Shown: positions 1,660-63,294 of the stretch, piece by piece
Layout of the letters: the number at the start of each line of letters is the position of its first letter
Numbering within the stretch: the first letter of the stretch is position 1
NCBI GenBank assembly: GCA_031425235.1
Contig: JANPIZ010000004.1
Location: forward strand, 66,251-130,250
DNA: 64,000 nucleotides
Origin: Candidatus Nomurabacteria bacterium
Lineage (GTDB): Bacteria; Patescibacteriota; Minisyncoccia; Phycocordibacterales; UBA9973
Reading direction: 5' to 3'
Program-made: the position numbers and the translations under genes
Notes under the pieces: generated by a model
What the model was told of the DNA's origin: nothing
Databases searched by the model: none
The model's input: the letters and a program-made list of their open reading frames with translations, nothing else

Positions 1660-3636
1660 TTAAGGAAGATTTAGGAATACAGGATCAGTCTTGTAGTCAC
1701 CAGGAAGATCGAAGTCAAATACGAAGTCGTCTCCACCAGCACCAGACAAGCCCCAACCGATAGCTTCAAGAGCAACTTGAGCGAATGCATCGCCAGTTGC
1801 AACTGCGCTAACAGTCAAAGTGATAGTTTCAGATGTGCCTTCTTCAATTAAGAATGCGACACCACCTTGTGTATCACCTGTTGATGTTGTAGTACAAGAA
1901 GCGGTATTGCTACCAGGGTTTGTAATACTAAATGAAGTAGCAGTAGATACTTCAGAACCATCGTTATCTTCTACACAAGTATTGTCGATTGCGATATCTC
2001 CATCAAATGCAGTAACTTTGTATTTGATTACGAATGTACCAATATCTCCAACAGTTGCAGTATCAGAAGATTGTTTTGATTCTGTAGCACTTACCAATTC
2101 AATATTGAATCCTACGTCGTAAGTAGCGTGAGCTTCACCTGCAGCTGTACCTGTAAGGTCAGCAGCACCTAATTCTTCACCACTTTCGTCTTCAGCTTCA
2201 ATAGCGTCAACTTCTGTACCTGTGAGCTCTACTTTTACAGTATCGCCATCATCAAGTACTCCACCAACGTCTTGTAAGCTTACAGAAACAGTGAATTTTA
2301 CTTCATCACCAGCTTCGATATCTATATCAAGATCATCGAAAGTAACAGCACCACCTGTAGGAACATCCTCAGTAGCTATTTCTTCCCCATCCATCCATAG
2401 TTTAGCTTCAACAACTATAACAGCTTCATCTGTTTCTCCAGTTGTTGTAATAAGAACTGGGATTTCAGTAACGTTTATGTCTGAATCTCCTTCCGCCTCA
2501 AGAGTGAAAGCAAGAACTTCAACATCGTCTGTATCATCAGAAGCGTCTACGTTGATAACGTGAGCATCGTTGATATCATCCTCAGCTGAATCCAAAGCAA
2601 CTTTCAACTCAGCATCAGATGCAGTAGCAAAATCTGCGAAGTCAAATGTTTCCTCAACTGTATCGTCAACAATTTCTTCGTCAACATCAAGTGTTAGAGT
2701 TTCTGTAGTTACAACTCCTTCAGCATCTTCGAATCGAACGTTTGATACACCTCCGTACCACACATCTGTATCAATATCGCCAGAATCAAGATTTGAAAGT
2801 GCACTTACAGCAACTGTGAACTCTTCAGTATCACCCTTTCGTACGATTGCACCGTCAAGAGAAACTGATTTTGACCATACATCGCTATTTTCAGAGAAAG
2901 AGTCTACGTCAGCTTCACCAACCTTTGTAGAACCCATCCAGATAGAAACTGATTCTGCGTAATCATCAAGATTTTCAGAGTCAGCTGCTGTTCCTTGGAA
3001 GAATTCAACTTTTACAGAAGTAACTTCAACGTCTGACTCATCGTCAGCTTCTACGTCGAAAGAAATAATTTCTACATCTTCCTCACCTTCACCAACCTCT
3101 TCACTTGAGTAAGATGAATTTGCTTCTATAGTGATTGAACCTGCTCCACCGGTTAGTGGACCACCAGTTGATGGTGTTGTTGTTGTACTATCACATTTCT
3201 TGCCAGTAGTTGGACTGTATCCAGCTGTTGATGAACAACCTGCTGGAAGTCCTGTTGATGGACCAGAAGTACATGGAAGACCAGTAGTTGTACTATATCC
3301 AGAAGCTGAAGTACAGCCAGCTGGGAAGTTACCACTAACAGAACCATTTAACGCAGCACGAGTCATAGGGCCAACGATACCGTCAGCAGTTAGACCCTTA
3401 CTTGTTTGGAAAGCCTTAACTGCAGCTAAAGTCATAGGACCGAAGCTACCGTCTGGGTTGGTTCCAACTTTTCCCTGAAGACATTGAACTTCAACGCCCT
3501 TAGAACCTAATTTCAATGTAACAGTGACTGCACAATCAGCTGAAGCTGGAGTTGCCTTAACAGCAACTGCACCTACGAACATAACTGCTACAACCAAAGT
3601 TCCAAGAAAGAATTTTGATTTTAATAAGTTACTCAT
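1660..3636 (-). CDS. cell-surface protein with two peptidoglycan-binding-like domains, S/T/G linker and a large acidic domain
   Basis: N-terminal signal/TM; two GPMT(L/R)AA(V/L)..(F/A)Q....L.ADGIVGP repeats (PG_binding_1-like); Cys-containing PAGC repeats; D/E-rich C-terminal two thirds. Confidence 0.55.
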   Translation of the reverse strand: MSNLLKSKFFLGTLVVAVMFVGAVAVKATPASADCAVTVTLKLGSKGVEVQCLQGKVGTNPDGSFGPMTLAAVKAFQTSKGLTADGIVGPMTRAALNGSVSGNFPAGCTSASGYSTTTGLPCTSGPSTGLPAGCSSTAGYSPTTGKKCDSTTTTPSTGGPLTGGAGSITIEANSSYSSEEVGEGEEDVEIISFDVEADDESDVEVTSVKVEFFQGTAADSENLDDYAESVSIWMGSTKVGEADVDSFSENSDVWSKSVSLDGAIVRKGDTEEFTVAVSALSNLDSGDIDTDVWYGGVSNVRFEDAEGVVTTETLTLDVDEEIVDDTVEETFDFADFATASDAELKVALDSAEDDINDAHVINVDASDDTDDVEVLAFTLEAEGDSDINVTEIPVLITTTGETDEAVIVVEAKLWMDGEEIATEDVPTGGAVTFDDLDIDIEAGDEVKFTVSVSLQDVGGVLDDGDTVKVELTGTEVDAIEAEDESGEELGAADLTGTAAGEAHATYDVGFNIELVSATESKQSSDTATVGDIGTFVIKYKVTAFDGDIAIDNTCVEDNDGSEVSTATSFSITNPGSNTASCTTTSTGDTQGGVAFLIEEGTSETITLTVSAVATGDAFAQVALEAIGWGLSGAGGDDFVFDFDLPGDYKTDPVFLNLP

Positions 3637-4117
3637 AAATTTTTATAATTTCTACGCCATTAATAAGTTTCGACAAAACTAAAAGCGTAATTTTCTTATC
3701 ATTATCTTACTCGTCATTAACTAATTAATAATTGCTAATAATGCGACGAATAAATAAATAATGAATAGAGATAAACATAATTGAAAACTAAATCTAAACA
3801 AATAGTATTTAATTTTCAATGACCTTACTTTTACCGAGAGATACACAATTGTATTGCTCGGCATTTATTTTCATACTGTATCACTTGAAATTTTTTCGAC
3901 GAAATTGCAAGCGAGGATCAGAACGAAAATAAATTATTGTTAGATTATGAATTACACAAAAAAATGCGCAGTTCATAACCACAACAACATTATAATATGG
4001 TGGCTCGAAACCGAGCAACAATATTATGTGGATAACTTACCCACGGATTACATATTTACATATTTTTGTCGAAAATGCAAATCAAAACCAAGGTCAGCAC
4101 CTGCTTATAATTGACGA

Positions 4118-5111: not shown

Positions 5112-5150
5112 CCTGCCCGCAATGCTTTCAGCATAGCTGATGCAGGCGGG
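5112..5150 (+). repeat. copy of the ~39-nt palindromic mini-element (5' of ftsK)
   Basis: cctgcccgcaatgctttcagcatagctgatgcaggcggg. Forms a 17-codon mini-ORF (MAPARNAFSIADAGGKK) whose TGA overlaps the ftsK ATG (ATGA). Confidence 0.8.
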
Positions 5151-7724: not shown

Positions 7725-8804
7725 ATGATAAAGAAAAAAGTAAAAAAAGAGGATAAAACAGTGGGTGTGAGTGTGCTAGAAGATACACTCAAATCAATTC
7801 AAAATAAATTTGGAGAAGGATCGATCATGAAGTTCGGCGATTCCCCTAAGGTGGATATCAACGTCATACCTACTGGATCTATCGGACTCGACGAAGCGCT
7901 CGGTGTCGGTGGCATACCCCGTGGCCGAATCATCGAAATATTTGGACCGGAATCATCAGGCAAAACTACCCTTTCTCTACATATAGTAGCCGAAGCACAG
8001 AAGTCGGGTGGAGTGTGTGCTTATATTGATGCAGAACACGCAATGGATCCTGAGTATACTAAAAAGCTCGGAGTTAATATAAATAACTTACTTATCTCTC
8101 AACCCGACAATGGTGAACAAGCACTTGAAATAGTGGAGAGCTTGGTGCGCACTGGCAAGATCGACGTGATCGTCATTGACTCAGTGGCTGCGCTTACACC
8201 AAAAGATGAAATCGAGGGCGATATGGGAGCGTACCACGTCGGTAAACAAGCTCGGCTTATGTCCCAAGCACTTCGTAAACTCACAGCTATAGTGGCTCGT
8301 TCAAAGACTGTGGTTATCTTCATCAACCAAATCAGAATGCAGATAGGAGTGATGTTTGGTAATCCAGAGACTACACCAGGAGGTAAGGCGCTCAAATTTT
8401 ATACTTCTGTAAGACTTGATATTCGTAAAATTGCTCAAATTAAAAAAGGTGAAGAAGTCGTCGGCTCTCGCACTCGAGTGAAAGTAGTCAAAAATAAAGT
8501 AGCTGCACCATTCAAACAAACAGAATTTGATATTATTTATGGTGAAGGTATTTCAAGCGAAGGAGAAATGATGGCTCTCGGCGAAAAATTTAAAATTGTT
8601 GAAAAAACTGGTAACTCATACTTCTATGCCCCTACTGGTCCTGCCCGCAATGCTTCTAGCACAGCTAGTGCAGGCGGGGAAAAAGCTGAGAAGATAAAGC
8701 TCGGTGTCGGATATGACGCTACCCGTAAATTCCTCAAGGAAAACAAAAAAATAGGCGACGCGATACTCAAAGAAATCAAAAAGAAGTTTAAAGAAGAACT
8801 TTAA
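7725..8804 (+). CDS. recA: recombinase RecA carrying an in-frame mini-element insertion near the C-terminus
   Basis: GPESSGKTT Walker A, full RecA core; 13-aa [13 protein letters not shown] inserted between YAPTG and EKAEKIKLG relative to canonical RecA. Confidence 0.9.
8640..8679 (+). repeat. palindromic mini-element copy in frame in recA
   Basis: cctgcccgcaatgcttctagcacagctagtgcaggcgggg; central hairpin ctagc-aca-gctag. Confidence 0.85.
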
Positions 8805-23388: not shown

Positions 23389-23461
23389 CCCTGTAGTGAA
23401 TTTTGGAAATGCTCAAAGTACGTAAATTTAATAATTTACTTTTCCAAAATCTACTACGGGG
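23389..23461. repeat. intergenic inverted-repeat element (family A) between ileS 3' end and the start of gene 22141..23373
   Basis: ccctgtagtgaattttgg ...~38 nt... ccaaaatctactacgggg. Confidence 0.7.
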
Positions 23462-26400
23462 TATCAATTTTTACCTTAAATACCAAAGAGTCGGCTTTTA
23501 TTTCCCCGCCTGCACTAGCTGTGCTAGAAGCATTGCGGGCAGGTTCACCGTCGTTATTTTTAAAGTGTATGGTAGCAACTTGTACTGTTTTTTTCATATC
23601 CGCTTCGAATTTTTGAATCAATTTTTGTCCGTGCGCATCTGTTGCAAATGTGAGTGCCACTACGTCGCTCGGAGTCAAACCCATCTTTTTCCTCATATCC
23701 TGCAAGCCTCGTACAAGTTCACGATACGTTCCCTCTTCTTTTAATTCATGCGTGATCTTGGTATCGAGGGTAATTTTCGTGATACCTATTTTGATTTTTA
23801 CTAAATATTCAACATGTTTAATATTCAATTCATCTTTAATAATCTCGAGGTATTCTGGAGCCAAACTTTCAGCGATGATTTCCACTTGCTGCAGCGGCTG
23901 GCGAACTTTTATGCCTGCCTTCTGCCTGGCATCGAGACCGAGGGTAACAATATCTCGAGCAGTTTTCATCCGATCGATCACATTTGGTTTAAAAAAGAAG
24001 AAAAACTGAAATTTTTTCTTTGGCCACACGGAAAGATGCACGCTTTCCACATCAGTTTCATTTTTGAGCTGCTGCCAAATATCTTCCGCAGTAAACGGTG
24101 CAAATGGTGCTAATAGTTTTGATAAGGTTTTGAACACAAAATACAACGTTTTCTTTGCCTCAGCATCGCCTTCCTTTATTCGTTCTCGTGAGCGACGCAA
24201 ATACCATGTCGACAGGTCACCTATAAAATCGCGAATCGCACGTACGGGTTCGAGAAGTTTGTAATTATCTAAATGTTCAGTGGTTAATACTGTCAGTTCA
24301 TCAAGTCGAGCCAGTATCCATTGATCAAGTATGTTTGCTGACGTTGGTCTTTCGCTACTCTCTAAACTTGTATCTCGATACAATTCATAAAATGCAAGCA
24401 CGTTGTACAGCAAACTAAACACTTGCTGTGAAACTAACGCAACAGTTTTTTCATCAAAATTTTTCGATTCGCCTGGTTGATTGATCGAGTACATCCATAA
24501 GCGAATCGTGTCGACTCCGTATTTATCCATCATTGTCCAAGGGTCGACAATGTTACCAAGAGACTTTGACATTTTTTTACCTTTTGAATCAAGCAAATGC
24601 CCCAGACAAATTACATTTTTGTACGCCAATCCCCGACCCATAAGCACACCAACAGCATGCAACGTATAAAACCAGCCACGAGTCTGGTCGATGGCTTCGG
24701 AAATATAATCCGCTGGAAAACCAGGGCCCTCGACCCACTTTTTGTTTTCAAAAGGATAATGATCTTGAGCAAACGGCATCGCTCCGGAATCGAACCACAC
24801 ATCCATGACTTCTTTTGTTCGTGCAAGTTCACTACCACATACACAAACGAGCGTTACATTATCAATATATGGTCGATGTAAGTCGAGCTCATAATCTTCA
24901 TTGTGTGGTATGGTAACAAAATCAATTTGCTTATACTGTGCGTTCTTAAATAGAGCATTTTGTTCATTGCCACCCTTCTCCATAACTTCAGAGTGCCTGA
25001 AAAGTCCACCCGTCATCGCGATCGATTCGTCTACATTCAAGCCTTCGAGTACTGCATGCAACATCCAAATAGGTGCACCGTGCGAAATAATAAGAATTTT
25101 TTTATTTTTATGTTTTTCTTCGAGTTCGCAAAAAACATCTCCTATCCTTCTTTTTACATTGAGTAATGATTCACCACCATGGATAGGATTCAAAAATCTT
25201 TCCTTTTCATTTTTGAACATATCTCGATATTCATCCCAGGATTTGCCATTGAATTCTCCAGCGTCGAGTTCACCCAGCCTTTTATCGAAGACAATTTTAT
25301 TGTCTTCGATGCCTAATGATTTTTTTAGAATTTCCAATGTATCGCGTGTACGAACAAACGGAGACACCAATACAAAATCGAATTGAAGCCCTTCCTCTTT
25401 CATTTTTTTAGCTGAAGTTTCAACTTGTTGCTCTCCGACATTAGTGAGATGATCTTCATTCTCAACTCGCGATGATACCACGCCGTGTGGGCCACCCTTC
25501 ACATTACTTTCTGATTGCCCATGTCGCATGAGATAGTATTCGTTACCCGACTTTTTTGTTTTCTTTTTTAAATCTTCCACTCCCCCGACAACTTCTCTAG
25601 CATCACACGAATAACATTGCCATACCGGTAGAGGTGTGCCCCAATACCGCTCACGGGATATTGCCCAATCTTTTATTTCCCGCAACCATTCACCAAAGCG
25701 ACCATTTCTAATGTGGCTTGGCTCCCAGTTTATTTTTTGATTTTGGGAAATGAGTTCACTTTTAATTTTTCGATCTGACATCCGTATATACCATGAATCA
25801 CGTGCGTAGTAGATAAGCGCCGTTTTGCAACGCCAGCAATGTGGATATGAGTGTTTGTAGTTTTCTTGTTTGAAAAATAAATTTCTTTTCTTTAAGTCTT
25901 CTATGATATCGACTGCCAAAGTAGGTTTACCGTCGGTGTTAGTTTCTTTTACAAACCGGGCTTCCAAAAACCCTGTTCCTGAAACAAAGTTCCCTTCAGG
26001 GTTCACGAGATGATATTTAGGCAAGCCAATCTTTGTGCCAAGCACAAAGTCATCTTGACCATACATAACTGCAGTATGCACCACACCAGTACCATCTTCG
26101 ATGTTTACAAAGTCAGCAACATAAACTTTGAACATTTTTTCCGTAGATTCCCCTTTTTTCTCGAGCTGTTCTTTCAAAAATGGAAACAGTGGTTCGTATT
26201 CAAAACTGAGCAAATCCTTGCCTTTCATTTCTTCTGTAATTTCATATTCTCCACCGAGTATTTCAATTCTTTCTTTTGCTAATATTAAAAACTCATTTTC
26301 TTTTTTGACTTGTACGTATTCAATATCCTCACCTACAGCAAGAGCTACATTCCCGGGTAAAGTCCACGGAGTTGTCGTCCAAGCAAGTATGTATGTATTG

Positions 26401-27050
26401 TCCTCATTTTTTACTTTGAATTTTACATATACCGACAAATCTTTTACATCTTCGTATCCTTGTGCGAGTTCGTGCGAAGAAAGTGCGGTGCCACACCGTG
26501 GACACCATGGCACCACTTTATAGTCTTTATATAAAAGTTTCTGTTCATTAATTTTTGATACCACATTCCACAGTGACTCAATATATGTGTTATGATACGT
26601 CACATATGGATTGTCTTTATCTACCCAGTAGCCTACTCGGTCGCGATATTTATACCACACATCGACGTGTTTCCAGACACTTTCTTTGCATTTTTGATTA
26701 AATTCCGCGATACCAAAACTCTCAATTTCTCGTTTAGATTTGAGTCCAAGTTCTTTTTCGACGAGTAGCTCTACTGGCAAGCCATGGGTATCCCAGCCTC
26801 CCTTTCGGCGAACATGATACCCACGCATTGTTTTATATCGTGGAATCGCATCCTTGAATGATTGTGGAATGAGGTGATGTATACCTGGCATACCGTTTGC
26901 GGTTGGCGGTCCATCGTAAAATACAAATTCTTTTTTACCTTCAGTATTTTTTAAAGTTTTAGAAAAAATATTGTTCTCCTGCCAAAATTTTAAAACCTTT
27001 TCCTCGCGAAGAGCTTGCTCACTTTTTTGTTTTTTTTCTTGTTCGTCCAT
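23454..27050 (-). CDS. ileS: isoleucyl-tRNA synthetase with embedded histidine-phosphatase (PGAM-like) domain and a C-terminal mini-element insertion
   Basis: PTANGMPGIHH (HIGH region), KMSKSLGN, CP1 editing region; residues ~500-700 (YYLMRHGQSESN...SPFVRTRDT...LIISHGAPI) match the RHG histidine-phosphatase superfamily; [14 protein letters not shown] near the C-terminus. Confidence 0.9.
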   Translation of the reverse strand: MDEQEKKQKSEQALREEKVLKFWQENNIFSKTLKNTEGKKEFVFYDGPPTANGMPGIHHLIPQSFKDAIPRYKTMRGYHVRRKGGWDTHGLPVELLVEKELGLKSKREIESFGIAEFNQKCKESVWKHVDVWYKYRDRVGYWVDKDNPYVTYHNTYIESLWNVVSKINEQKLLYKDYKVVPWCPRCGTALSSHELAQGYEDVKDLSVYVKFKVKNEDNTYILAWTTTPWTLPGNVALAVGEDIEYVQVKKENEFLILAKERIEILGGEYEITEEMKGKDLLSFEYEPLFPFLKEQLEKKGESTEKMFKVYVADFVNIEDGTGVVHTAVMYGQDDFVLGTKIGLPKYHLVNPEGNFVSGTGFLEARFVKETNTDGKPTLAVDIIEDLKKRNLFFKQENYKHSYPHCWRCKTALIYYARDSWYIRMSDRKIKSELISQNQKINWEPSHIRNGRFGEWLREIKDWAISRERYWGTPLPVWQCYSCDAREVVGGVEDLKKKTKKSGNEYYLMRHGQSESNVKGGPHGVVSSRVENEDHLTNVGEQQVETSAKKMKEEGLQFDFVLVSPFVRTRDTLEILKKSLGIEDNKIVFDKRLGELDAGEFNGKSWDEYRDMFKNEKERFLNPIHGGESLLNVKRRIGDVFCELEEKHKNKKILIISHGAPIWMLHAVLEGLNVDESIAMTGGLFRHSEVMEKGGNEQNALFKNAQYKQIDFVTIPHNEDYELDLHRPYIDNVTLVCVCGSELARTKEVMDVWFDSGAMPFAQDHYPFENKKWVEGPGFPADYISEAIDQTRGWFYTLHAVGVLMGRGLAYKNVICLGHLLDSKGKKMSKSLGNIVDPWTMMDKYGVDTIRLWMYSINQPGESKNFDEKTVALVSQQVFSLLYNVLAFYELYRDTSLESSERPTSANILDQWILARLDELTVLTTEHLDNYKLLEPVRAIRDFIGDLSTWYLRRSRERIKEGDAEAKKTLYFVFKTLSKLLAPFAPFTAEDIWQQLKNETDVESVHLSVWPKKKFQFFFFFKPNVIDRMKTARDIVTLGLDARQKAGIKVRQPLQQVEIIAESLAPEYLEIIKDELNIKHVEYLVKIKIGITKITLDTKITHELKEEGTYRELVRGLQDMRKKMGLTPSDVVALTFATDAHGQKLIQKFEADMKKTVQVATIHFKNNDGEPARNASSTASAGGEIKADSLVFKVKIDTP
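23504..23543 (-). repeat. palindromic mini-element copy in frame in ileS
   Basis: Reverse complement is identical to the recA copy (cctgcccgcaatgcttctagcacagctagtgcaggcgggg). Confidence 0.85.
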
Positions 27051-27060
27051 AATATTTTTT

Positions 27061-27290
27061 ATTAAAAAAACTCGTCCCCGTACAACAATACAAGATTGTT
27101 ATACAAGGACGAGTTTCATCGCCAGAGGCGATCAAGTCGTGGTACCACCTTGTTTCAAGCCTACTAAAATTATAGAGCTTCTTAATTGTAGCTATTACGG
27201 GCATGCCCGTCGGGTTCTACTCTGTTATTCACAGTTCCTCCCGAAGCTCAGAGGTGATAGCCTCTTCAACGCTCGTGTAAAAATAATACC
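27061..27290 (-). promoter_or_regulatory. T-box riboswitch leader upstream of ileS (candidate Ile AUC specifier)
   Basis: Minus strand: extended -10 TGgTATTAT; T-box sequence AAGGTGGTACCACGA (matches GGTGGNACCGCG); UGGU bulge compatible with discriminator A73 of tRNA-Ile; terminator hairpin aactcgtcc...ggacgagttttttt directly before the ileS ATG; AUCA in a loop (gaggCUAUCAccuc). Confidence 0.75.
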
Positions 27291-30276: not shown

Positions 30277-32058
30277 CTACATTTTTTCTGGAGCTTGGAT
30301 ACCGAGCAGATGAAGCCCTGTTTTCATTATAAACGAAAATGCGTAGGTAAGAGTTATTTTATACGCTGAACTTTTGTCATCTTTACTCACAATGGTGTTA
30401 TTCGCATAAAAACTGTTAAACGATCTTGCAACTTCTATCAAATAATTCGCTATGTAGTGAGGCTCATATTCTCTCGCAGATCGTTCTACAACTTCATCAA
30501 ATGTATACAGCATTTTTTCAATTTCAAAAATTTCTGCTGGAAAGGCATGCGGGTCAGGGGAAATATTTTCTTTCTGTGACTTTTCTAATATAGATTTTGC
30601 TCGAGCATATGAATACTGAAGGTATGGACCCGAGTCTCCTTCAAATGAAATTGATTTGTCAAAATCGTATGCGATGTCCCCTCCAGTTGATTGTTTTAAG
30701 ATGGAGTATTTGAGCGCAGCGATACCGACGACTTCCGCGACTTTCGTTTTCTTTCCCCCGCCTGCACCAGCTATGCTGGAAGCATTGCGGGCAGGTTCAT
30801 CAGTCCATCTATCCTTCATTCGCTCTTCTACTAAATTAATAGTATCCCGAATCAAAGACTCGCCAGTAACCACATTCCCCTTTCGAGACGACATTTTACC
30901 CGAAGCCAAACGCATCATCCCGTGCGTAATGTGTTTCATTTTTGATTCGTATTCTGGATGAATAATGGAAATTGCTTTCGCGACTACCTTCATGTATTCC
31001 ATTTGTTCATTTGCAGTTACCACAATACTCAAATTCATTTCAGGCAACTTGGCAAACTTTTCCTCAGTTAATCCTAGTTCTTTTGTCTCGTAGGTAGGTA
31101 ATCCTTTCGAAGTCATGAAAACCCTGGTATGAAGTTTTGGGTCATATTTTTCCGCCTTGAAAACAACTGCTCCGTCGGAATCTTCAAAAATCATCTTGCT
31201 CCCAAGTGGGTCGATAGCTTTATTCATATTATCCTCGACCAGTTTTTGACCAAGCGGCGCTACGTAACTTTCCAAGAAATAATATTCAAATTTTGTGCCG
31301 AGTATTGTATACAAATCTTCAAACGCATTCATGGTCGCCTCAAAACCCCACGCATATATTTCATTTATCTTTTCATCACTCTTATCGTAAAGTTTTTTAT
31401 TTATTTCATCTATTTCGGCTTTCGCGTTTGGGTCATCTTCGTACAAGGCAGCGCCAGAAACATATGCCTCGCCGATGCGTGCCGCTTGGTCCGTGTGCGT
31501 ACCTGACCTGTCCTCAAGTCCTTTGTTTTTCAAAAGGCCGTATATCGCCTTGGCCACATGAAGGCCGACATCGCCTTGGTAGTTTGCGCGTGACACTACT
31601 GCTCCCGAATGTTCTAAAATAGTAGCTACTGATTCGCCAATCGCATTTGTCATCAAGTGACCTATGTGAAAAGGCTTGAATGGATTTGGATCAGTGTACT
31701 CTACCATTATTTTTTGACCTGAGAGAGTTTTGTTTTTACCAACCTCGTACCCTTTATTTACAATTTCTTCTACACTATGAGCAAAAAATTCACGTGATAA
31801 ATAGAAGTTTATAAACCCGGCCCCGGCGACCTCAATTTTTTCTATATGTGTATCTGTATTCAGTCGGAGCATTTCCGTAACTATTTTTTCAGCGAAATCT
31901 TTTGGATTCATCTGCACGCCCTTGGCTACAGCTAAAGCAATATTCGTAGAATAATCTCCCATTTTTAAATCAGCTGGATGTTCAAGAGTTATAGTACTCA
32001 CCTCTATGTTGAGATTTTGAAGTGCGTCTTGTATTAATTTTTTTATATTAGCGTGCAT
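30277..32058 (-). CDS. argS: arginyl-tRNA synthetase with in-frame mini-element insertion
   Basis: PFHIGHLMTN HIGH motif, MSSRKGN (KMSKS-like), C-terminal DALR-type helical domain; PARNASSIAGAGGG insertion; start probably MHANIKK (ORF extends to 32112). Confidence 0.85.
   Translation of the reverse strand: MHANIKKLIQDALQNLNIEVSTITLEHPADLKMGDYSTNIALAVAKGVQMNPKDFAEKIVTEMLRLNTDTHIEKIEVAGAGFINFYLSREFFAHSVEEIVNKGYEVGKNKTLSGQKIMVEYTDPNPFKPFHIGHLMTNAIGESVATILEHSGAVVSRANYQGDVGLHVAKAIYGLLKNKGLEDRSGTHTDQAARIGEAYVSGAALYEDDPNAKAEIDEINKKLYDKSDEKINEIYAWGFEATMNAFEDLYTILGTKFEYYFLESYVAPLGQKLVEDNMNKAIDPLGSKMIFEDSDGAVVFKAEKYDPKLHTRVFMTSKGLPTYETKELGLTEEKFAKLPEMNLSIVVTANEQMEYMKVVAKAISIIHPEYESKMKHITHGMMRLASGKMSSRKGNVVTGESLIRDTINLVEERMKDRWTDEPARNASSIAGAGGGKKTKVAEVVGIAALKYSILKQSTGGDIAYDFDKSISFEGDSGPYLQYSYARAKSILEKSQKENISPDPHAFPAEIFEIEKMLYTFDEVVERSAREYEPHYIANYLIEVARSFNSFYANNTIVSKDDKSSAYKITLTYAFSFIMKTGLHLLGIQAPEKM
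30755..30795 (-). repeat. palindromic mini-element copy in frame in argS
   Basis: Reverse complement cctgcccgcaatgcttccagcatagctggtgcaggcggggg; central stem ccagc-ata-gctgg with compensatory changes. Confidence 0.85.
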
Positions 32059-51006: not shown

Positions 51007-52571
51007 TAGTTCTCGATGAATATCGGTTTCTTTTTTAACTCAGTGCACGCTGCTGATGCTCCCCCATTTTTACCGTTGCATGTCCAAGTCCACTTAGAAA
51101 TACCGTTTACATTACTACCGCCTGTCGCGCTGCCGCTGGGATTTGTACCAACAACACAATTGTAATGATTGGCAGCACACTTGGCTGCAATAGGGAGAGG
51201 GCCACCAGGGCCTCCGGGGCCAGGACCCGCACACGCTTGAGTTGTAGGAGGTTGTGGAAGAGGGCATTGTGAGCCTCCGTTTGACGGAGGAATACATGTA
51301 ACTGTTCGAGTTCGTACTCCGTTAATACATGGTCCCCAATCACCTGTTTCCCAACGTCCATCAATCGGTGCATTTTCTTCTACGCACAAGCTTCCGTTGT
51401 ACTTAGCTCCCTGCTCACATCTTGCTGTGATAGGTGCTTGGGCTAGAATTAAATTATTATGATACAAATAAAATGTACTTGACCCTTCGTTCACTATGTT
51501 CGAAAAATTTGTGGCTGAAGTATTTGTAGACACCGTTGTATTGTTGGGATTATTCCTTGTTACAGCAGTATTAGCCCCAGGAACACGATTTTGTGTGTCC
51601 CAAGTTACTGAAGAAGTACATGTAGAGCTTCCGATGGGTATGGTGCAAGAAGTTGCTGATATAGTTCCTGACGGAGCTATGTCTGCAGAACAGGTGCTAC
51701 CATTCCATGTGCTGTTTCCGCCACAGGTAGTAGTTACTGTCGCCAACGCCAGCTGCTCTGAATTATTGTATAAATAAAAAGTAGTTACACCGTCAAAATC
51801 AGTATTGTATCGAACTGTAAAAAGTTGAGATCCATTATTGCCATTGGCTGAACTTGGTGTTGCTCCTCCATTATTAGTAACTGCTGAAGTGCCTACGGGA
51901 TTAGTTGTAGTCCATGTTAATGTTTGAGTGCAGGTGCTTTGCCCAGAAGGAATAGTGCAGGTTGATGATGGTGGGATAAGGGTGCCGGACATGGGGGAGG
52001 TAGTTCTAGTTATGGTGAAGGTGCGAGACATAGGAAGCGGATCTAAGGGATGACCTTGAGTATCATAATACTCATTACCTTGACTCATAACTCCATAAAA
52101 ATCAGGGTATTGAGAACATGAATATCCTGGCAATTGACAATTAGGATTATCAACAGCTGGATTGGGATTATTATTATATATAGTTGCCGTTATTGTATAG
52201 ATTCCTGCAGACCACGCAGAAACATCTACGGTATGATTTATGAAACTATTCGCTGCCCCAGATTGGAACATTACTGTGCCAACACTATTAGTAATAATAT
52301 AGTTTAAGCTAGTTTGTCTATCTATAACACCGCTGCCACTATTTGTATGAGGATTATAATGACTACAAAACCAACTTCTTTCCCCAGATATGTTTACATT
52401 AATATTGCTTGGGTTGGAGTACACACCTGTAGGGCTATTCATAGTAGATATACTAGGATGGACTGCAGGCTCATTACCACAACTAGCAAGAGCAATTTCT
52501 GACTTAAAAAACACTCCGGAGACTACTAACAGGCTCACTAAAACAAAAAGGTTAAAAAATTTTAATTTCAT
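51006..52571 (-). CDS. secreted T/S/N-rich protein with Cys-rich C-terminal region (hypothetical; adjacent to pilus cluster)
   Basis: Signal peptide (LFVLVSLLVVSGVFF), low-complexity T/S/N-rich body, multiple paired Cys in the C-terminal third. Confidence 0.45.
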   Translation of the reverse strand: MKLKFFNLFVLVSLLVVSGVFFKSEIALASCGNEPAVHPSISTMNSPTGVYSNPSNINVNISGERSWFCSHYNPHTNSGSGVIDRQTSLNYIITNSVGTVMFQSGAANSFINHTVDVSAWSAGIYTITATIYNNNPNPAVDNPNCQLPGYSCSQYPDFYGVMSQGNEYYDTQGHPLDPLPMSRTFTITRTTSPMSGTLIPPSSTCTIPSGQSTCTQTLTWTTTNPVGTSAVTNNGGATPSSANGNNGSQLFTVRYNTDFDGVTTFYLYNNSEQLALATVTTTCGGNSTWNGSTCSADIAPSGTISATSCTIPIGSSTCTSSVTWDTQNRVPGANTAVTRNNPNNTTVSTNTSATNFSNIVNEGSSTFYLYHNNLILAQAPITARCEQGAKYNGSLCVEENAPIDGRWETGDWGPCINGVRTRTVTCIPPSNGGSQCPLPQPPTTQACAGPGPGGPGGPLPIAAKCAANHYNCVVGTNPSGSATGGSNVNGISKWTWTCNGKNGGASAACTELKKKPIFIEN

Positions 52572-52611
52572 ATTATGTTGATTTTACCTATAATACCTCC
52601 ATTATACTAAA

Positions 52612-52638
52612 TATACTTACAAAGTATATTTAGTATGT
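52612..52638. promoter_or_regulatory. perfect 12-bp-arm inverted repeat in divergent region upstream of nusA
   Basis: ctaaatatactt-aca-aagtatatttag. Confidence 0.35.
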
Positions 52639-52795
52639 GTATAACTCAACGAACAAGACTACATTGCGTTCATTTTATAATTGTGGTATATTGGATTTGT
52701 ATAAGTCCTGTGCCAACAGGGCTTTTAATTTTAGAAACTTAATAAAAGAGCGTCGCGCTAATTTGACGGTTGCGTGACGTGATTTCGCAAAATCA

Positions 52796-53947
52796 ATGTT
52801 AGACTTAAAAACATTCAAATCAGCTCTGGAACAACTAGAACAAGACAGAAAAATACCAAAAGAAAAAATACTAGACGCAATTGAGCAAGCGATGGCCGCC
52901 GCCTACAAAAAAGATTACGGGAAAAAAGGACAAATCATCCGAGCAAAATTCGACCTTGATACTGGTAAGACCAATTTTTATCAAGTAAAGATCGTGGTAG
53001 ATGAATCTATTGCAATTTTAGACGGAGAAGATGACAGTTCCGACGATGAGTCAGACGAGCGCGTTCATTTTAATGCCGAGCATCATATACTTCTCGAAGA
53101 TGCTAAAAAAATAAAAAAGGACGCTGAACTAAATGATGAGATGATATTCCCCCTCGAGGCAAAAGAGGACTATGGCCGTATTGCTGCCCAAACAGCCAAG
53201 CAGGTTATAATTCAGAAAATTCGGGAAGCAGAACGTGTGTCTATCATCGATGAATATGGCACAAAAGAAGGAGAAATCATTTCTGGTATAGTACAAAAAG
53301 TGGAACGAGGTAATATTTATATTGATTTCAATCGTGCTACAGGGATATTACCTGCGGAAGAGCAGATCCCAGGAGAATTCTGGGAACGGGGACGAAGAAT
53401 CCGAGCATATCTATACTCAGTGGAAGACACTCAACGGGGTATAAATCTACGTCTTTCACGCACGCATCCTAAATTCATAGAGAAGCTTTTCATGATGGAA
53501 GCTCCAGAAATACAGAATGGGGTTGTAGAAATAAAATCTATCGCTCGCGAAGCGGGAGCACGTTCCAAAATTGGTGTATATTCAAACGATGAACATATCG
53601 ATGCTGTCGGCTCATGTGTCGGACAAAAAGGTACTCGTGTAAACACTATAACGCAAGAACTCGGCGGAGAAAAAATCGATATTATCCCTTGGTCTGCAGA
53701 TCCAAAAATGTTTGTCACCAACGCTCTTTCACCCGCAAAAGTCATTTCTATTGAAATCGATGAGAAAGAGCATAAAGCTATCGTCGAAGTGGGCGACGAT
53801 CAACTCTCCCTCGCAATTGGTAAAGGTGGACAAAATGTACGCCTTGCTGCCAAGCTTACTGGTTGGAGAATAGACATCAAAGGTGATGGAAAGATGGTAA
53901 GCTCTGAGGAAGATGCAGAAGAAGTAGTTGAAAAAACTGAGGAATAG
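52796..53947 (+). CDS. nusA: transcription termination/antitermination factor NusA
   Basis: NusA N-terminal domain, S1 domain (GEIISGIVQKVERGNIYIDF), two KH domains. Confidence 0.9.
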   Translation: MLDLKTFKSALEQLEQDRKIPKEKILDAIEQAMAAAYKKDYGKKGQIIRAKFDLDTGKTNFYQVKIVVDESIAILDGEDDSSDDESDERVHFNAEHHILLEDAKKIKKDAELNDEMIFPLEAKEDYGRIAAQTAKQVIIQKIREAERVSIIDEYGTKEGEIISGIVQKVERGNIYIDFNRATGILPAEEQIPGEFWERGRRIRAYLYSVEDTQRGINLRLSRTHPKFIEKLFMMEAPEIQNGVVEIKSIAREAGARSKIGVYSNDEHIDAVGSCVGQKGTRVNTITQELGGEKIDIIPWSADPKMFVTNALSPAKVISIEIDEKEHKAIVEVGDDQLSLAIGKGGQNVRLAAKLTGWRIDIKGDGKMVSSEEDAEEVVEKTEE

Positions 53948-56355: not shown

Positions 56356-57465
56356 ATGCTAAAAACAAAAATCACAAAACTACCAAAAAGTGAGGTTGAA
56401 ATAGAGGGTTCACTACATGAAGACGCCTTTGAACAGTACTACAGCAAGGCACTTAAAAACATAGGCGCAAATGTAGAGCTTGATGGATTTAGGAAAGGTA
56501 AAGTTCCTGAAAGTGTTCTTGTTTCTAACATTCCAGAAAATCATATATTGGAAGAAATGGCTCAGCTTGCAATAAACGAACACTACCCCAACATATTAGA
56601 AAGTGAAAAAATTGATGCTATCAGTCGACCAGAAATTTCCATTACTAAACTCGCTCGAAAAAATCCACTTGAGTTTAAAATCAAAACAGCGATATTACCG
56701 CACATAACACTCCCTGACTATAAAACAATAGCCAAAGATATCTCGGCAAGTGTTACCGATGCAGAAAAAAATGTAGTGGTGTCTGACGATGATGTCGAAA
56801 ATGCTATTTTGGATATTAGAAAATCTCGTGCGCCGCGAACACATGTAACGGAAGTAGCTACAGAGGAGAACAAAGAAACACCCGAAAACACAGAACCAAA
56901 AGTAGAACCTGCCCGCAATGCTTCTGACATAGCTGATGCAGGCGGGGAACTCCCAGAATTCAATGATGAATTTGTGAAAAATCTTGGACCATTTGAAAAT
57001 GTCAAAGATTTTAAAAATAAATTAAAAATAAATTTGAAACTCGAGAAAGAAAACGCTCAGAAAGAAAAAACAAGATTGAAAATCATTGAAGAAATAATTG
57101 AAAAAAGCCATCTTGAAGTACCTGAAATTCTTATTGATATCGAAGTCAATAAAATTTTGCAAAAAATGGAAGCAGATATAACTCAAATGGGCTTAAAATT
57201 TGAGGATTATTTAAAGCACATAAACAAAACCATTGAAGACTTAAAAAAAGAATTCCGCATTGATGGCGAGAAAAAAGCTAAACTTTCACTTATCTTAAAT
57301 GAAATATCTAAGGTAGAAAAGATAGTCCCCGATCCTGAGCTTGTAAAAAAAGAAGTCGAGGCTATCATGGAACACTACAAAGATGCTGACCTCGAACGAG
57401 CAATAATGCATGTAGAAAATGTGTTAGTTAATGATCAAATTTTCAAACTTCTTGAAACTCAATAA
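56356..57465 (+). CDS. tig: trigger factor (short form, apparently lacking PPIase domain) with in-frame mini-element insertion
   Basis: DGFRKGKVP hallmark; 369 aa; PARNASDIADAGG inserted just before conserved ELPEFNDEF. Confidence 0.8.
   Translation: MLKTKITKLPKSEVEIEGSLHEDAFEQYYSKALKNIGANVELDGFRKGKVPESVLVSNIPENHILEEMAQLAINEHYPNILESEKIDAISRPEISITKLARKNPLEFKIKTAILPHITLPDYKTIAKDISASVTDAEKNVVVSDDDVENAILDIRKSRAPRTHVTEVATEENKETPENTEPKVEPARNASDIADAGGELPEFNDEFVKNLGPFENVKDFKNKLKINLKLEKENAQKEKTRLKIIEEIIEKSHLEVPEILIDIEVNKILQKMEADITQMGLKFEDYLKHINKTIEDLKKEFRIDGEKKAKLSLILNEISKVEKIVPDPELVKKEVEAIMEHYKDADLERAIMHVENVLVNDQIFKLLETQ
56908..56947 (+). repeat. palindromic mini-element copy in frame in tig
   Basis: cctgcccgcaatgcttctgacatagctgatgcaggcgggg (central hairpin degenerate in this copy). 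Confidence 0.85.
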
Positions 57466-62244: not shown

Positions 62245-62261
62245 ATTATCTCCTTACACAA

Positions 62262-62296
62262 AACAAAAAACACCCTTGTCGGGTGTTTTTTGTTTT
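62262..62296. terminator. bidirectional intrinsic terminator between hup and lexA
   Basis: aaaacaaaaaacacccttgtcgggtgttttttgtttt. Confidence 0.7.
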
Positions 62297-62305
62297 AGTA
62301 GTGAT

Positions 62306-62872
62306 TTAATATTTTCGAATGACTGCTTTTAGTACTGCATTGATATTTAAAGAATGTTCGGGATATATCGGCTGGTAGTTTTTGTTCGCTGGTTCAAGCC
62401 ACGATTTACTTCCCTCTTTTCTAAAGTATTTCATAGTAAATTCTCCATCTACTTCGGCTATAACTATCTGTCCGTCGCGAGCCGTGTTTGCCCGTTCCAC
62501 TAAAATCATATCACCAGGCTCTATATGCGCATCTATCATTGAGTCACCATCTACCTCAAGCATGTAGGTGAGAGATTTATTTTTCACGAGCATATCATCG
62601 AGGTTCACAGTGTCAGCCAATTCTTCCTCTACGCTCGCTGGCAAACCAGCTGTTACAAAACCAAGTTTTGGAATTTCTCCAAATGTTTCTGAGGGAGTAA
62701 GTCGGCCAAGATGATCTTTGGTTACTATTCCCGATTCCATTAGTTTTTCGACAACCTTAAATACAGCATTTTTAGATTTGAAACCAAAGAGCTGCATCAT
62801 CTCGGTATATGTAGGCATTCGTTTATTGTCAGAATAAAAAGATTCTATTTTTGTTTGATAAATATTCCGCAT
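62306..62872 (-). CDS. lexA: LexA repressor
   Basis: N-terminal wHTH, S24 peptidase domain with GDSM (Ser) and FTMKYF (Lys) motifs. Confidence 0.85.
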   Translation of the reverse strand: MRNIYQTKIESFYSDNKRMPTYTEMMQLFGFKSKNAVFKVVEKLMESGIVTKDHLGRLTPSETFGEIPKLGFVTAGLPASVEEELADTVNLDDMLVKNKSLTYMLEVDGDSMIDAHIEPGDMILVERANTARDGQIVIAEVDGEFTMKYFRKEGSKSWLEPANKNYQPIYPEHSLNINAVLKAVIRKY

Positions 62873-62940
62873 CCCGGTACTAAAATTTTAAATTGTAATT
62901 TTTAATGATCATATATATTTTGTTGAATTTAGTACGGGAC
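62873..62940. repeat. variant inverted repeat (GTACT arms) between small SOS ORF and lexA
   Basis: cccggtactaaaatttt ...~35 nt... gaatttagtacggg; resembles family A but with GTACT instead of GTAGT core. Confidence 0.5.
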
Positions 62941-62944
62941 AAGT

Positions 62945-63145
62945 CTAGAATGCAAGGTTAGCAAAAGTTGGAAAAAAGCGATTGAAAAAATTCTTGCGAG
63001 AATGGTATCGAACCTTCTGAAGAAGTAGTTTGTGATTTCGAGCTTCCTTGATATATGACTCCCCTTGTAAGATCTTCAAGTCGATCTTCTTGTTAATGAC
63101 TTGTATTTCTCGCTCTAGCATTTTTAAGTATTGTGATTGTGACAT
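62945..63145 (-). CDS. small hypothetical protein, first gene downstream of the LexA-box promoter
   Basis: 66-aa ORF ~90 nt downstream of the SOS-box promoter; no TM. Confidence 0.4.
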   Translation of the reverse strand: MSQSQYLKMLEREIQVINKKIDLKILQGESYIKEARNHKLLLQKVRYHSRKNFFNRFFPTFANLAF

Positions 63146-63234
63146 TTGATTCTGCGAATCACGTCGCGTAAGTCCTTTTGGCGCGACGCAATCTGTTTAA
63201 TTTTACTAATCTGACCCGACGTGGTCATGTGTAT

Positions 63235-63263
63235 AGTATAGGTGAACGATCGTTCACTGTCAA
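63235..63263 (-). promoter_or_regulatory. LexA-repressible promoter: TTGACA - GTGAACGATCGTTCACC - TATACT
   Basis: Minus strand has perfect -35 TTGACA, 17-nt spacer that is a 16-bp perfect palindrome containing a Cheo-type box GAAC-N4-GTTC, and -10 TATACT. Confidence 0.75.
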
Positions 63264-63294
63264 CAACCTCACATGTGGATAACTACCAGCACAA

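What the first reader, a model, noticed from the sequence alone, without database searches (positions are those of the whole stretch)
62873..63263. Textbook LexA-repressed promoter with Cheo-type box driving a small ORF-lexA unit
On the minus strand the promoter reads TTGACA / GTGAACGATCGTTCACC / TATACT. The -35 and -10 boxes are perfect or near-perfect, and the entire 17-nt spacer is a 16-bp perfect palindrome containing a Firmicutes/Actinobacteria-type SOS box (GAAC-N4-GTTC). Downstream lie a 66-aa ORF (62945..63145) and then lexA. lexA has no separate box, so it is probably autoregulated through this promoter. The small ORF could be an SOS-induced effector such as a division inhibitor. No comparable box is visible upstream of recA in this window.
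Basis: partly seen in the sequence, partly recalled or inferred. Interest (0 to 1): 0.5.

Follow-up and report, generated by a model that had tools for sequence, protein, structure and literature searches.

The report
Self-repressed lexA operon with DnaA box
This is the promoter of the DNA-damage (SOS) repressor gene lexA in an uncultured Patescibacteria bacterium: a LexA binding site sits inside the promoter as expected, but across this whole bacterial group the same promoter also carries a perfect binding site for the replication initiator DnaA, and it first transcribes a conserved 66-residue protein of unknown function.

Summary
On the minus strand, TTGACA (63263-63258), GTGAACGATCGTTCACC (63257-63241) and TATACT (63240-63235) precede a 66-aa ORF (63145-62945) and lexA (62872-62306).

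One GAAC-N4-GTTC in 64 kb is what chance gives. Comparison makes it real:
- All 80 related Paceibacteria/Nomurabacteria genomes, and about 27 more distant Patescibacteria loci, keep GTGAAC-N4-GTTCAC between a -35 and a -10 upstream of the same small ORF plus lexA.
- The element carries about 2 bits per position against about 0.1 bit in the flanks.

The small ORF is a real gene under purifying selection. In most relatives it overlaps or abuts lexA, so the two genes form one autoregulated operon. The encoded LexA passes the NCBIfam lexA equivalog cut-off and keeps its Ala-Gly cleavage site and Ser/Lys dyad. recA has no box.

- A perfect DnaA box (TTATCCACA, 63282-63274) lies 10 nt upstream of the -35. 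It is present in 77 of 80 relatives and kept, in either orientation, in distant lineages.
- The small protein belongs to an unannotated Patescibacteria-only family predicted to be a helical hairpin with a basic-aromatic tail.

LexA and DnaA binding, and the small protein's function, are inferred and not shown.

The parts
63274..63282 (-). DnaA-box consensus TTATCCACA, 10 nt upstream of the -35 hexamer
   Evidence: Exact match. An exact copy lies 25-27 nt upstream of the GAAC core in 77 of 80 related loci, against only 5 other copies in 485 kb. It is kept in distant lineages in either orientation and at variable distance. DnaA binding is inferred from the consensus only.
63258..63263 (-). -35 hexamer TTGACA
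   Evidence: TTGACA-like in all relatives, with a 17- or 18-nt spacer.
63242..63257 (.). 16-bp perfect palindrome GTGAACGATCGTTCAC (core GAAC-N4-GTTC at 63244-63255); inferred LexA operator filling the -35/-10 spacer
   Evidence: Present in 80 of 80 relatives, at about 2 bits per position, and in distant Patescibacteria loci. LexA binding is inferred, not shown.
63235..63240 (-). -10 hexamer TATACT; predicted transcription start near 63228
   Evidence: In L055 and L080 the small-ORF ATG lies 6 nt after the -10, so the mRNA there is effectively leaderless. The start site itself is inferred.
63146..63228 (-). 5' leader of about 83 nt with two hairpins (63227-63212 and 63193-63158)
   Evidence: RNA fold -23.2 kcal/mol, z = -2.4. 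Leaders range from 6 to 144 nt among relatives and are built from different hairpin modules. An (A/G)GTCG motif near the 5' end is found in 54 of 78 leaders against a 6.4% background. No Rfam match. The 34-aa ORF 63124..63228 inside the leader is not conserved.
62945..63145 (-). Gene for a 66-aa protein of an unannotated Patescibacteria family (predicted helical hairpin plus basic-aromatic C-terminal tail)
   Evidence: Conserved in 80 of 80 loci. Codon-position entropy 0.48/0.33/1.20 bits, and 60% of codon differences are synonymous. 375 close homologues and 288 cluster representatives, all 34-108 aa. No Pfam, NCBIfam, PHROGs or PDB match. AF2 pLDDT 86.8, helices 3-27 and 32-57.
62871..62944 (-). 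72-nt spacer (62873-62944). A long-range 13-bp stem pairs 62940-62928 (starting 5 nt after the small-ORF stop) with 62884-62871, which includes the A and U of the lexA AUG.
   Evidence: RNA fold -13.3 kcal/mol, z = -1.7. The same stem, with different sequence and G-U pairs, is the minimum-energy fold in L042 and L068. No promoter-like match on this strand. Coupling of lexA translation to the small ORF through this stem is inferred.
62306..62872 (-). lexA (188 aa): winged-HTH domain plus S24 self-cleaving domain
   Evidence: Pfam Peptidase_S24 1e-27 and a weak LexA_DNA_bind match. TIGR00498 lexA equivalog 122.1 bits against a cut-off of 110.95. E. coli LexA structures at E = 4e-19. A75-G76, S111 and K148 conserved in 81 of 81. 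80-86% identical to proteins named LexA in Paceibacterota/Nomurabacteria MAGs.
62261..62286 (-). Intrinsic-terminator-like hairpin ACACCC-gacaa-GGGTGT followed by TTTTTGTTTT, between the convergent lexA and hup (HU) genes
   Evidence: Read directly. The automatic scan did not list it. HU gene identified.

Best explanation
This is the autoregulated SOS-repressor operon of a Patescibacteria (Paceibacteria/Nomurabacteria-like) bacterium.

One sigma-70-type promoter (TTGACA-17-TATACT) transcribes a leader, a 66-aa protein gene and lexA, ending at a terminator shared with the convergent HU gene. The 16-bp palindrome GTGAACGATCGTTCAC fills the -35/-10 spacer. A LexA dimer bound there would exclude RNA polymerase, so LexA limits its own synthesis and that of the small protein. 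After DNA damage, RecA-stimulated self-cleavage (Ala75-Gly76, Ser111/Lys148) would derepress both genes. All of this paragraph's mechanism is inferred.

lexA translation is coupled to the small ORF. In most relatives the coupling is by overlap or abutment of stop and start. In this window it is by a long-range RNA stem that hides the lexA AUG until a ribosome finishing the small ORF opens it. This is also inferred.

A consensus DnaA box 10 nt upstream of the -35 gives the replication initiator a second input into the promoter. Its sign is unresolved. I lean slightly to limiting or co-repression, as reported for E. coli SOS genes.

The small protein is a helical hairpin with a basic-aromatic tail. 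It is most likely a damage- and replication-status-dependent effector (a checkpoint-type inhibitor) or a LexA partner. Its function is not established.
For: Shown by sequence and comparison:
- Promoter anatomy.
- Box in the same promoter position in 80 of 80 related genomes, with 81 copies at these promoters and 3 elsewhere in 549 kb.
- About 2 bits per position across box and -10, against about 0.1 bit in the flanks, over 78 distinct sequences.
- The same module in distant lineages with 26-50% GC, reached through remote small-ORF homologues and through an independent metagenome pattern scan.
- The small ORF is coding and under purifying selection. Its stop overlaps lexA by 8 nt in 32 loci and lies no more than 16 nt away in 63 of 81.
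- In L055 and L080 its ATG is 6 nt after the -10.
- LexA identity and catalytic residues.
- Spacer stem recurring with compensatory changes.
- DnaA box exact in 77 of 80 loci at a fixed offset, with only 5 copies elsewhere in 485 kb. It is kept in inverted orientation or at other distances in distant loci, and next to six different upstream genes.

Precedent: DnaA and LexA jointly repress E. coli uvrB, recN and dinJ (PMC6015884).
Against: - There is no experimental evidence for LexA or DnaA binding, for the transcription start, or for damage induction.
- The window alone is not statistically compelling.
- LexA's predicted recognition helix (SKNAVFKVVEKL) looks more like that of E. coli LexA than that of B. 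subtilis LexA. This rests on my memory of those sequences, so recognition of a GAAC-N4-GTTC site cannot be argued by homology of the reading head.
- No other regulon member was found: none in the window, none in 549 kb around lexA in relatives, and none convincing among the non-lexA loci with 34-50% GC that I inspected from the 80 metagenome hits. recA lacks a box. The regulon may therefore be tiny, and 'SOS response' may be too grand a word.
- There is no terminator between the upstream Nudix gene and the promoter, so read-through could add to lexA expression.
- The variable spacing and orientation of the DnaA box do not tell activation from repression.
- The small protein gave only generic fold matches.
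Confidence: 0.75

Rival explanations
1. The small protein is not an SOS effector but a stoichiometric partner of LexA. It would be a co-repressor, or a modulator of LexA's DNA binding or self-cleavage, which would explain why it is translationally coupled to LexA.
For: Stop/start overlap or abutment in most loci. The two genes stay adjacent even when the order is reversed (L086) or another ORF is inserted between them (L091). The family is confined to loci that also carry lexA in every case examined. Precedent from memory: phage GIL01 gp7, a roughly 50-aa protein that binds LexA and stabilises it on DNA.
Against: There is no interaction evidence and no similarity to gp7 or to any other family. 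Gene adjacency to lexA is also typical of plain SOS effectors. From memory, sulA lies downstream of lexA in Pseudomonas, and yneA is divergent from lexA in Bacillus.
Confidence: 0.3
2. TTATCCACA upstream of the -35 is not a DnaA site. It would be the site of another factor, or an UP-like promoter element that happens to match the DnaA consensus.
For: DnaA binding was not tested, and neither dnaA nor oriC of this genome is in the window. A second exact copy in the window (4027-4035, minus strand) also sits 8 nt upstream of a promoter-like TTGCTC-17-TATAAT. That would fit a promoter-associated element.
Against: A 9-of-9 match to the near-universal DnaA box is present in 77 of 80 loci. It occurs at chance frequency elsewhere in 485 kb, so it is not a general promoter element. 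In distant lineages it appears inverted (TGTGGATAA), as TTGTCCACA or TTATCCCCA, and 0-22 nt from the -35. That behaviour suits a transcription-factor site but not an UP element.
Confidence: 0.2
3. In this particular genome lexA is expressed mainly from its own promoter inside the 72-nt AT-rich spacer, or by read-through from upstream genes. The boxed promoter would then control only the small ORF.
For: The window is one of a minority of loci (18 of 81) with a spacer longer than 16 nt. The spacer is very AT-rich, and no terminator separates the Nudix gene from the promoter.
Against: There is no promoter-like match on the coding strand in 62873-62944 at the scan threshold, and no terminator between the small ORF and lexA. 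The spacer's conserved feature is a stem joining the stop region to the lexA AUG, which argues for coupling rather than independence. Most relatives have no spacer at all.
Confidence: 0.1
4. The palindrome is the operator of a regulator other than LexA, for example the small protein itself.
For: Binding was not tested. LexA's reading helix does not resemble that of Firmicutes LexA (from memory).
Against: The site is found only at lexA operons and has the GAAC-N4-GTTC core bound by LexA in Firmicutes and Actinobacteria (established knowledge). A dyad of this size fits a LexA dimer. The small protein is a predicted helical hairpin with no recognisable DNA-binding motif.
Confidence: 0.05

Closest known systems
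Autoregulated lexA (dinR) promoters with the GAAC-N4-GTTC 'Cheo' SOS box of Firmicutes and Actinobacteria
   Same: Same palindromic GAAC-N4-GTTC core. The operator overlaps the core promoter of lexA itself. The repressor is a canonical winged-HTH plus S24 LexA with an Ala-Gly site and a Ser/Lys dyad.
   Different: The flanking bases are T/A (GTGAAC..GTTCAC, invariant in the clade), not CGAAC..GTTCG. The box is placed exactly in the spacer. recA carries no box. lexA is the second gene of the operon. The organism is a Patescibacteria member.
Dual DnaA plus LexA control of E. coli SOS genes uvrB, recN and dinJ (PMC6015884)
   Same: A DnaA box and a LexA box lie in one SOS promoter region. The proposed logic is that the replication initiator modulates SOS gene output.
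   Different: In E. coli the boxes overlap and compete, the genes are repair genes, and lexA itself was not among the genes studied there. Here the boxes are adjacent and do not overlap, the target is the lexA operon itself, and the arrangement is conserved across a whole class-level clade. Binding and sign are untested here.
lexA operons or neighbourhoods that carry an SOS checkpoint gene: Pseudomonas lexA-sulA, E. coli lexA-dinF, B. subtilis yneA-yneB-ynzC divergent from lexA (all from memory)
   Same: A small SOS-controlled gene is physically linked to lexA and shares its operator.
   Different: The gene order is small ORF first, with translational coupling to lexA. The protein has no detectable similarity to SulA, YneA, YnzC/DUF896, SidA or SosA and no transmembrane segment.
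B. subtilis Sda (from memory: a 46-aa helical-hairpin checkpoint protein whose promoter is controlled through DnaA boxes)
   Same: A small predicted helical hairpin expressed from a promoter with a DnaA box. A replication-status input is plausible.
   Different: No sequence similarity was detected. Sda's target (sporulation kinases) does not exist in Patescibacteria. This gene is also under a LexA box and is coupled to lexA.
Published comparative genomics of the Patescibacteria SOS network (Sanchez-Osuna, Barbe and Erill, Environ Microbiol 2017; 19:3465)
   Same: Same superphylum and same question (LexA motif and regulon).
   Different: I could not read the paper, because it is not held in the library. 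PMC7739468 cites it among examples of LexA evolving direct-repeat motifs, whereas the site here is a palindrome. I cannot tell whether that paper already describes this palindromic motif, the small ORF or the DnaA box.

Membership tests
LexA repressor (TIGR00498; S24 self-cleaving repressors) | Full-length match to the lexA equivalog model above its curated cut-off | tested here: met
   122.1 bits against a cut-off of 110.95. Pfam Peptidase_S24 1.2e-27.
LexA repressor (TIGR00498; S24 self-cleaving repressors) | N-terminal winged-HTH LexA DNA-binding domain | tested here: inconclusive
   Pfam LexA_DNA_bind scores 17.5 bits, below the gathering cut-off of 23.7. However, residues 13-60 align with the E. 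coli LexA N-terminal domain in the PDB search and are highly conserved in the clade.
LexA repressor (TIGR00498; S24 self-cleaving repressors) | Ala-Gly cleavage site and Ser/Lys catalytic dyad | tested here: met
   A75-G76 (VTAG), S111 (GDSM) and K148 (TMKY) align with E. coli A84-G85, S119 and K156 and are conserved in 81 of 81 sequences.
LexA repressor (TIGR00498; S24 self-cleaving repressors) | RecA*-stimulated autocleavage and operator binding | not testable with these tools
   Needs purified proteins.
Gram-positive-type SOS (Cheo) box | Palindromic GAAC-N4-GTTC core | tested here: met
   GAACGATCGTTC at 63244-63255; present in 80 of 80 relatives.
Gram-positive-type SOS (Cheo) box | Consensus flanks CGAAC...GTTCG | tested here: not met
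   The flanks are invariably T and A (GTGAAC..GTTCAC) at 2 bits. This is therefore a variant of the motif, not the Firmicutes consensus. That consensus is quoted from memory.
Gram-positive-type SOS (Cheo) box | Located so that bound LexA occludes the promoter of an SOS gene | tested here: met
   The box fills the 17-nt spacer between TTGACA and TATACT.
DnaA box | 9-mer TTATCCACA (or TTATNCACA) | tested here: met
   Exact at 63274-63282; exact in 77 of 80 relatives; exact, inverted or with one mismatch in distant loci.
DnaA box | Bound by the organism's DnaA; the same consensus is used at its oriC | not testable with these tools
   dnaA and oriC are not in the window and no binding data exist.
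Known SOS cell-division inhibitors (SulA, YneA, ChiZ, DivS, SidA, DidA, SosA) | Sequence or domain similarity to one of these (SulA fold; LysM; single transmembrane helix) | tested here: not met
   No Pfam, NCBIfam or PDB match at permissive E-values. The only hydrophobic part is a C-terminal tail of about 14 residues interrupted by Arg, Asn and Pro, which is too short for a membrane span.
Known SOS cell-division inhibitors (SulA, YneA, ChiZ, DivS, SidA, DidA, SosA) | Blocks division when induced | not testable with these tools
   Needs expression experiments.
YnzC / DUF896 (helical-hairpin SOS protein of Bacillus) | Match to Pfam DUF896 | tested here: not met
   DUF896 was not hit for the window protein or for 10 distant members at E up to 1. 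The profile search found nothing in the PDB. The only shared feature is a predicted helical hairpin.

The most novel reading that the evidence does not exclude
Across Patescibacteria, the lexA promoter integrates two signals: DNA damage through LexA and replication-initiation status through DnaA. Its first product is a previously unrecognised family of small helical-hairpin proteins. This protein would be the clade's checkpoint effector, blocking division or replication initiation, or tuning LexA itself. It would replace the SulA/YneA-type inhibitors that these reduced genomes lack.
Probability: 0.3. Interest if true: 0.7.

Novelty: new variant of a known kind. Interest (0 to 1): 0.5.

Why it matters
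LexA autoregulation through a GAAC-N4-GTTC-type box is ordinary. The interest lies in what is attached to it.

First, an invariant DnaA box is wired into the promoter of the SOS master repressor itself, across a very large group of uncultured bacteria with minimal genomes. That would be the clearest comparative-genomic case for cross-talk between replication-initiation control and the SOS switch. So far this cross-talk has been argued mainly from E. coli repair genes.

Second, a 66-aa protein family with no annotation is always produced together with LexA. It is a concrete candidate for the missing cell-cycle or SOS effector of these organisms.

Third, recA carries no box and no other site was found. 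This suggests an SOS circuit reduced to little more than this operon.

All three points can be tested with purified proteins and heterologous expression, without cultivating the organism.

Tried and rejected
- The 34-aa ORF 63124..63228 starts at the predicted transcription start. It is not conserved: only the window has it. Where its sequence is kept, the changes preserve a hairpin and not a reading frame. Rejected as a gene.
- Known RNA families in the leader or spacer: no Rfam match even at E up to 1.
- Function of the small protein by homology: Pfam, NCBIfam, PHROGs and a PDB profile search all gave nothing.
- C-terminal tail as a clamp-binding motif (QLxLF-like). Considered because distant members end in ...SLF or ...LF. 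Rejected as unsupported, because the extreme C-terminus is not conserved within the close clade: it ends either in ..FSF or in ..NIYA.
- C-terminal tail as an amphipathic membrane anchor. The tails are consistently basic (net 0 to +4, positive in all but one member examined) and aromatic, but their hydrophobic moment is only weakly above shuffled controls (mean z = 0.5). Left as a weak possibility.
- Other regulon members. None in the window, none in 549 kb of related loci, and none among the non-lexA loci with 34-50% GC that I inspected from the 80 metagenome hits to the 16-mer. The remaining, mostly higher-GC, non-lexA hits were not inspected.
- The window as an oriC region, which could have explained the DnaA box. 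The GC-skew and gene-orientation switch lies near 52.6 kb, about 10 kb away, with no DnaA-box cluster. The upstream genes differ between lineages. Rejected.
- The key prior paper on the Patescibacteria SOS network could not be read.

Full report
**1. What is in the window**

Read on the minus strand, the region is TTATCCACA (63282-63274), 10 nt, TTGACA (63263-63258), GTGAACGATCGTTCACC (63257-63241), TATACT (63240-63235). A leader of about 83 nt follows, then a 66-aa ORF (63145-62945), a 72-nt spacer, and a 188-aa ORF (62872-62306). A hairpin plus T-run (62286-62261) faces the convergent HU gene.

The promoter scan ranks TTGACA-17-TATACT as the best match in the region, with 11 of 12 positions. 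The 188-aa protein has a Peptidase_S24 domain (1e-27) and a weak LexA_DNA_bind match.

**2. Is it more than chance?**

Within the window alone, it is not. One GAAC-N4-GTTC is found where 0.76 is expected. Seven promoter-like sites are found where 6.4 are expected. The case rests on comparison.

The LexA protein identifies the organism as a Patescibacteria member. Its homologues are 80-86% identical and are named LexA of Paceibacterota, Nomurabacteria or Minisyncoccia MAGs. A genome scan returned 80 loci from different species.

- All 80 carry GTGAACGnnCGTTCAC 253-433 nt upstream of lexA, always between a TTGACA-like hexamer and TATACT.
- In 549 kb, GAAC-N4-GTTC occurs 81 times at these promoters and 3 times elsewhere.
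- Over 78 distinct promoter sequences, information content is about 2 bits per position from the GT before GAAC through the -10, and about 0.1 bit in the flanks.

**3. The operon**

The 66-aa ORF is conserved in 80 of 80 loci. It shows a coding signature: entropy per codon position is 0.48, 0.33 and 1.20 bits, and 60% of codon differences are synonymous.

Its stop codon lies inside lexA codons 2-3 (ATGCGTAA, an overlap of 8 nt) in 32 loci. It abuts the ATG in 9 loci, and lies no more than 16 nt away in 63 of 81. Most relatives therefore have no room for a separate lexA promoter.

In L055 and L080 the small-ORF ATG is 6 nt after the -10. This fixes both the promoter and the start codon.

The window belongs to a minority with a long spacer. 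It has no promoter-like match on the coding strand and no second box. Its conserved feature is a 13-bp stem. The stem pairs the sequence starting 5 nt after the small-ORF stop with the sequence ending in the A and U of the lexA AUG. L042 and L068 form the same stem with different sequence and G-U pairs. I read this as preserved translational coupling. That is an inference, and the fold z-score is only -1.7.

**4. The repressor**

The protein passes the NCBIfam lexA equivalog cut-off (122.1 against 110.95 bits). It aligns over both domains with E. coli LexA structures. It keeps A75-G76, S111 and K148 in 81 of 81 sequences.

Repression by occlusion of the spacer, and derepression by RecA-stimulated cleavage, follow from established LexA biology. 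They are not shown here.

The operator shares the GAAC-N4-GTTC core with the Firmicutes and Actinobacteria box but has invariant T/A flanks.

recA (7725..8804) has no site upstream, and neither does ftsK ahead of it. No other site was found in the window or in the relatives' flanks. None was found among the non-lexA loci with 34-50% GC that I inspected from the 80 metagenome hits to the 16-mer.

**5.

TTATCCACA, the consensus DnaA box, lies 10 nt upstream of the -35. In the 80 relatives it occurs 82 times in 485 kb. Of these, 77 lie 25-27 nt upstream of the GAAC core, and the other 5 are at chance level. It is therefore a specific part of this promoter and not a general promoter element.

I looked up nine remote homologues of the small protein, found by a profile search of 1.84 billion representatives. 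For seven of them the sequence upstream of the small ORF could be examined.
- All seven carry a GAAC-N4-GTTC box between a -35 and a TATACT.
- Two carry TTATCCACA exactly.
- One has it inverted (TGTGGATAA).
- The other four have TTGTCCACA, TTATACACA, CTTATCCACA or only GGGGGATAA.
- The box lies 0-20 nt from the -35.

An independent metagenome scan with the 16-mer gave 20 further Patescibacteria-type loci with 26-50% GC. Nineteen of them have upstream sequence. Fourteen carry the exact box, one an inverted exact box, three a one-mismatch box, and one none.

The upstream gene differs between lineages: Nudix, PF1765-like, DUF1003, murG and others. The box therefore travels with the lexA operon.

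DnaA binding is inferred from the consensus only. The variable geometry does not reveal whether DnaA activates or represses. E. coli offers a precedent for joint repression of SOS genes by DnaA and LexA (PMC6015884).

**6. The small protein**

There are 375 close homologues, all labelled hypothetical or unnamed, and none has a Pfam domain. The profile search found 288 cluster representatives of 34-108 aa. The only taxonomic label recovered for distant members is 'Patescibacteria group bacterium'.

No match was found in Pfam, NCBIfam, PHROGs or PDB sequences.

AlphaFold2 on a 30-sequence alignment predicts a helical hairpin, with helices 3-27 and 32-57 and pLDDT 86.8, followed by a low-confidence tail. 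Fold searches return only generic hairpins.

The invariant residues (N18, I21, D22, K24, I25, G28, Y31, E34, A35, H38) cluster around the hairpin turn. The tail is basic and aromatic and only weakly amphipathic.

It is not a member of any known SOS division-inhibitor family, and it has no transmembrane segment. Its constant coupling to LexA fits either an SOS effector or a LexA partner. I cannot separate these two possibilities.

**7. Leader**

Leaders vary from 6 to 144 nt and are assembled from different hairpin modules. The window's leader folds into two hairpins (z = -2.4).

A short (A/G)GTCG motif near the 5' end occurs in 54 of 78 leaders, against a 6.4% background. It is unexplained.

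**8. Known or new?**

A LexA-autoregulated lexA promoter with a GAAC-N4-GTTC-type operator is a known kind. A dedicated paper on the Patescibacteria SOS network exists (Environ Microbiol 2017; 19:3465) but is not held in the library. A citing paper lists it among direct-repeat LexA motifs. I therefore cannot say whether this palindromic motif or the small ORF was reported there.

The library search for papers combining a DnaA box, LexA, a promoter and an SOS box found only the E. coli uvrB study and one genome-annotation paper.

I class the whole module as a new variant of a known kind: a DnaA box plus a LexA box driving a coupled small-protein gene and lexA, conserved across a large clade.

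**9. Verdict**

- Confidence in the autoregulated bicistronic operon is about 0.75.
- Confidence that the DnaA box is a real DnaA input is about 0.7, with its sign unknown.
- Confidence in any specific function for the small protein is low.
- Interest is 0.5.

Noticed in passing
window 5112-5150(+), 8640-8678(+), 23505-23543(-), 30757-30795(-), 56908-56946(+); also L064 2418-, L009 1632-, L055 2976-: A 39-bp imperfect-palindrome element, CCTGCCCGCAATGCTTCnnnCAnAGCTnnTGCAGGCGGG, occurs 5 times in the window where 0 are expected. Four copies lie inside protein genes: recA, a class I aminoacyl-tRNA synthetase, a 611-aa ORF and trigger factor. All four are in the gene's orientation and in frame 0, adding 13 residues P-A-R-N-A-S-x-x-A-x-A-G-G. 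The fifth copy lies 6 nt upstream of the ftsK start. This resembles the Rickettsia palindromic elements that insert in frame into coding genes (comparison from memory). It deserves its own study.
   Followed up: partly
window 4027-4035 (-) and 3960-4020: The only other exact TTATCCACA in the window also sits 8 nt upstream of a promoter-like TTGCTC-17-TATAAT. It is followed by about 330 nt without a convincing ORF or Rfam match, ahead of a 658-aa peptidoglycan-binding protein gene (1660..3636). It may be a second DnaA-controlled promoter.
   Followed up: partly
window 27102-27278 (-): A T-box leader lies upstream of the 1198-aa class I aminoacyl-tRNA synthetase gene (23454..27050). It scores 46 bits (E = 5e-9), below Rfam's gathering score of 93, so the default scan missed it. 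The enzyme itself carries a histidine-phosphatase (His_Phos_1) domain inserted at residues 506-676.
   Followed up: partly
window 63211-63226 (-) and the first 35 nt of the leaders in L001-L080: The motif (A/G)GTCG is enriched near the 5' end of the lexA-operon transcript: 54 of 78 leaders against a 6.4% background. It lies either at the predicted start site or in the loop of a 5-bp hairpin whose stem shows compensatory changes (GACC/GGTC against AGCC/GGCT). It is often followed by ATTAGTA. Its function is unknown.
   Followed up: partly
L002, L003, L013, L047, L051, L052, L079, L132 (leaders of the lexA operon): A G+C-rich hairpin module...TACCCCTACCCAGCCTCCCCCTAtgTAGGGGGAGG..., is inserted in the leader in several species. 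Other species carry other hairpin modules at the same place. The leader seems to be a hotspot for small palindromic insertions.
   Followed up: no
L086 451-651 and L091 2200-2409: These are variant gene orders in distant lineages. In L086 the small-protein gene lies downstream of lexA. In L091 an extra 69-aa ORF sits between the small ORF and lexA.
   Followed up: no
window about 52570-52800: Cumulative GC skew reaches its minimum here, and gene orientation switches from mostly minus to mostly plus. That would fit a replication origin or an inversion breakpoint. However, there is no cluster of DnaA boxes and dnaA is not in the window.
   Followed up: no
L105, L123, L169 (metagenome loci, 54-61% GC): The same 16-mer, GTGAACGnnCGTTCAC, lies next to lexA homologues that lack the small ORF, in organisms with higher GC. 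The extended motif is therefore not confined to Patescibacteria.
   Followed up: no
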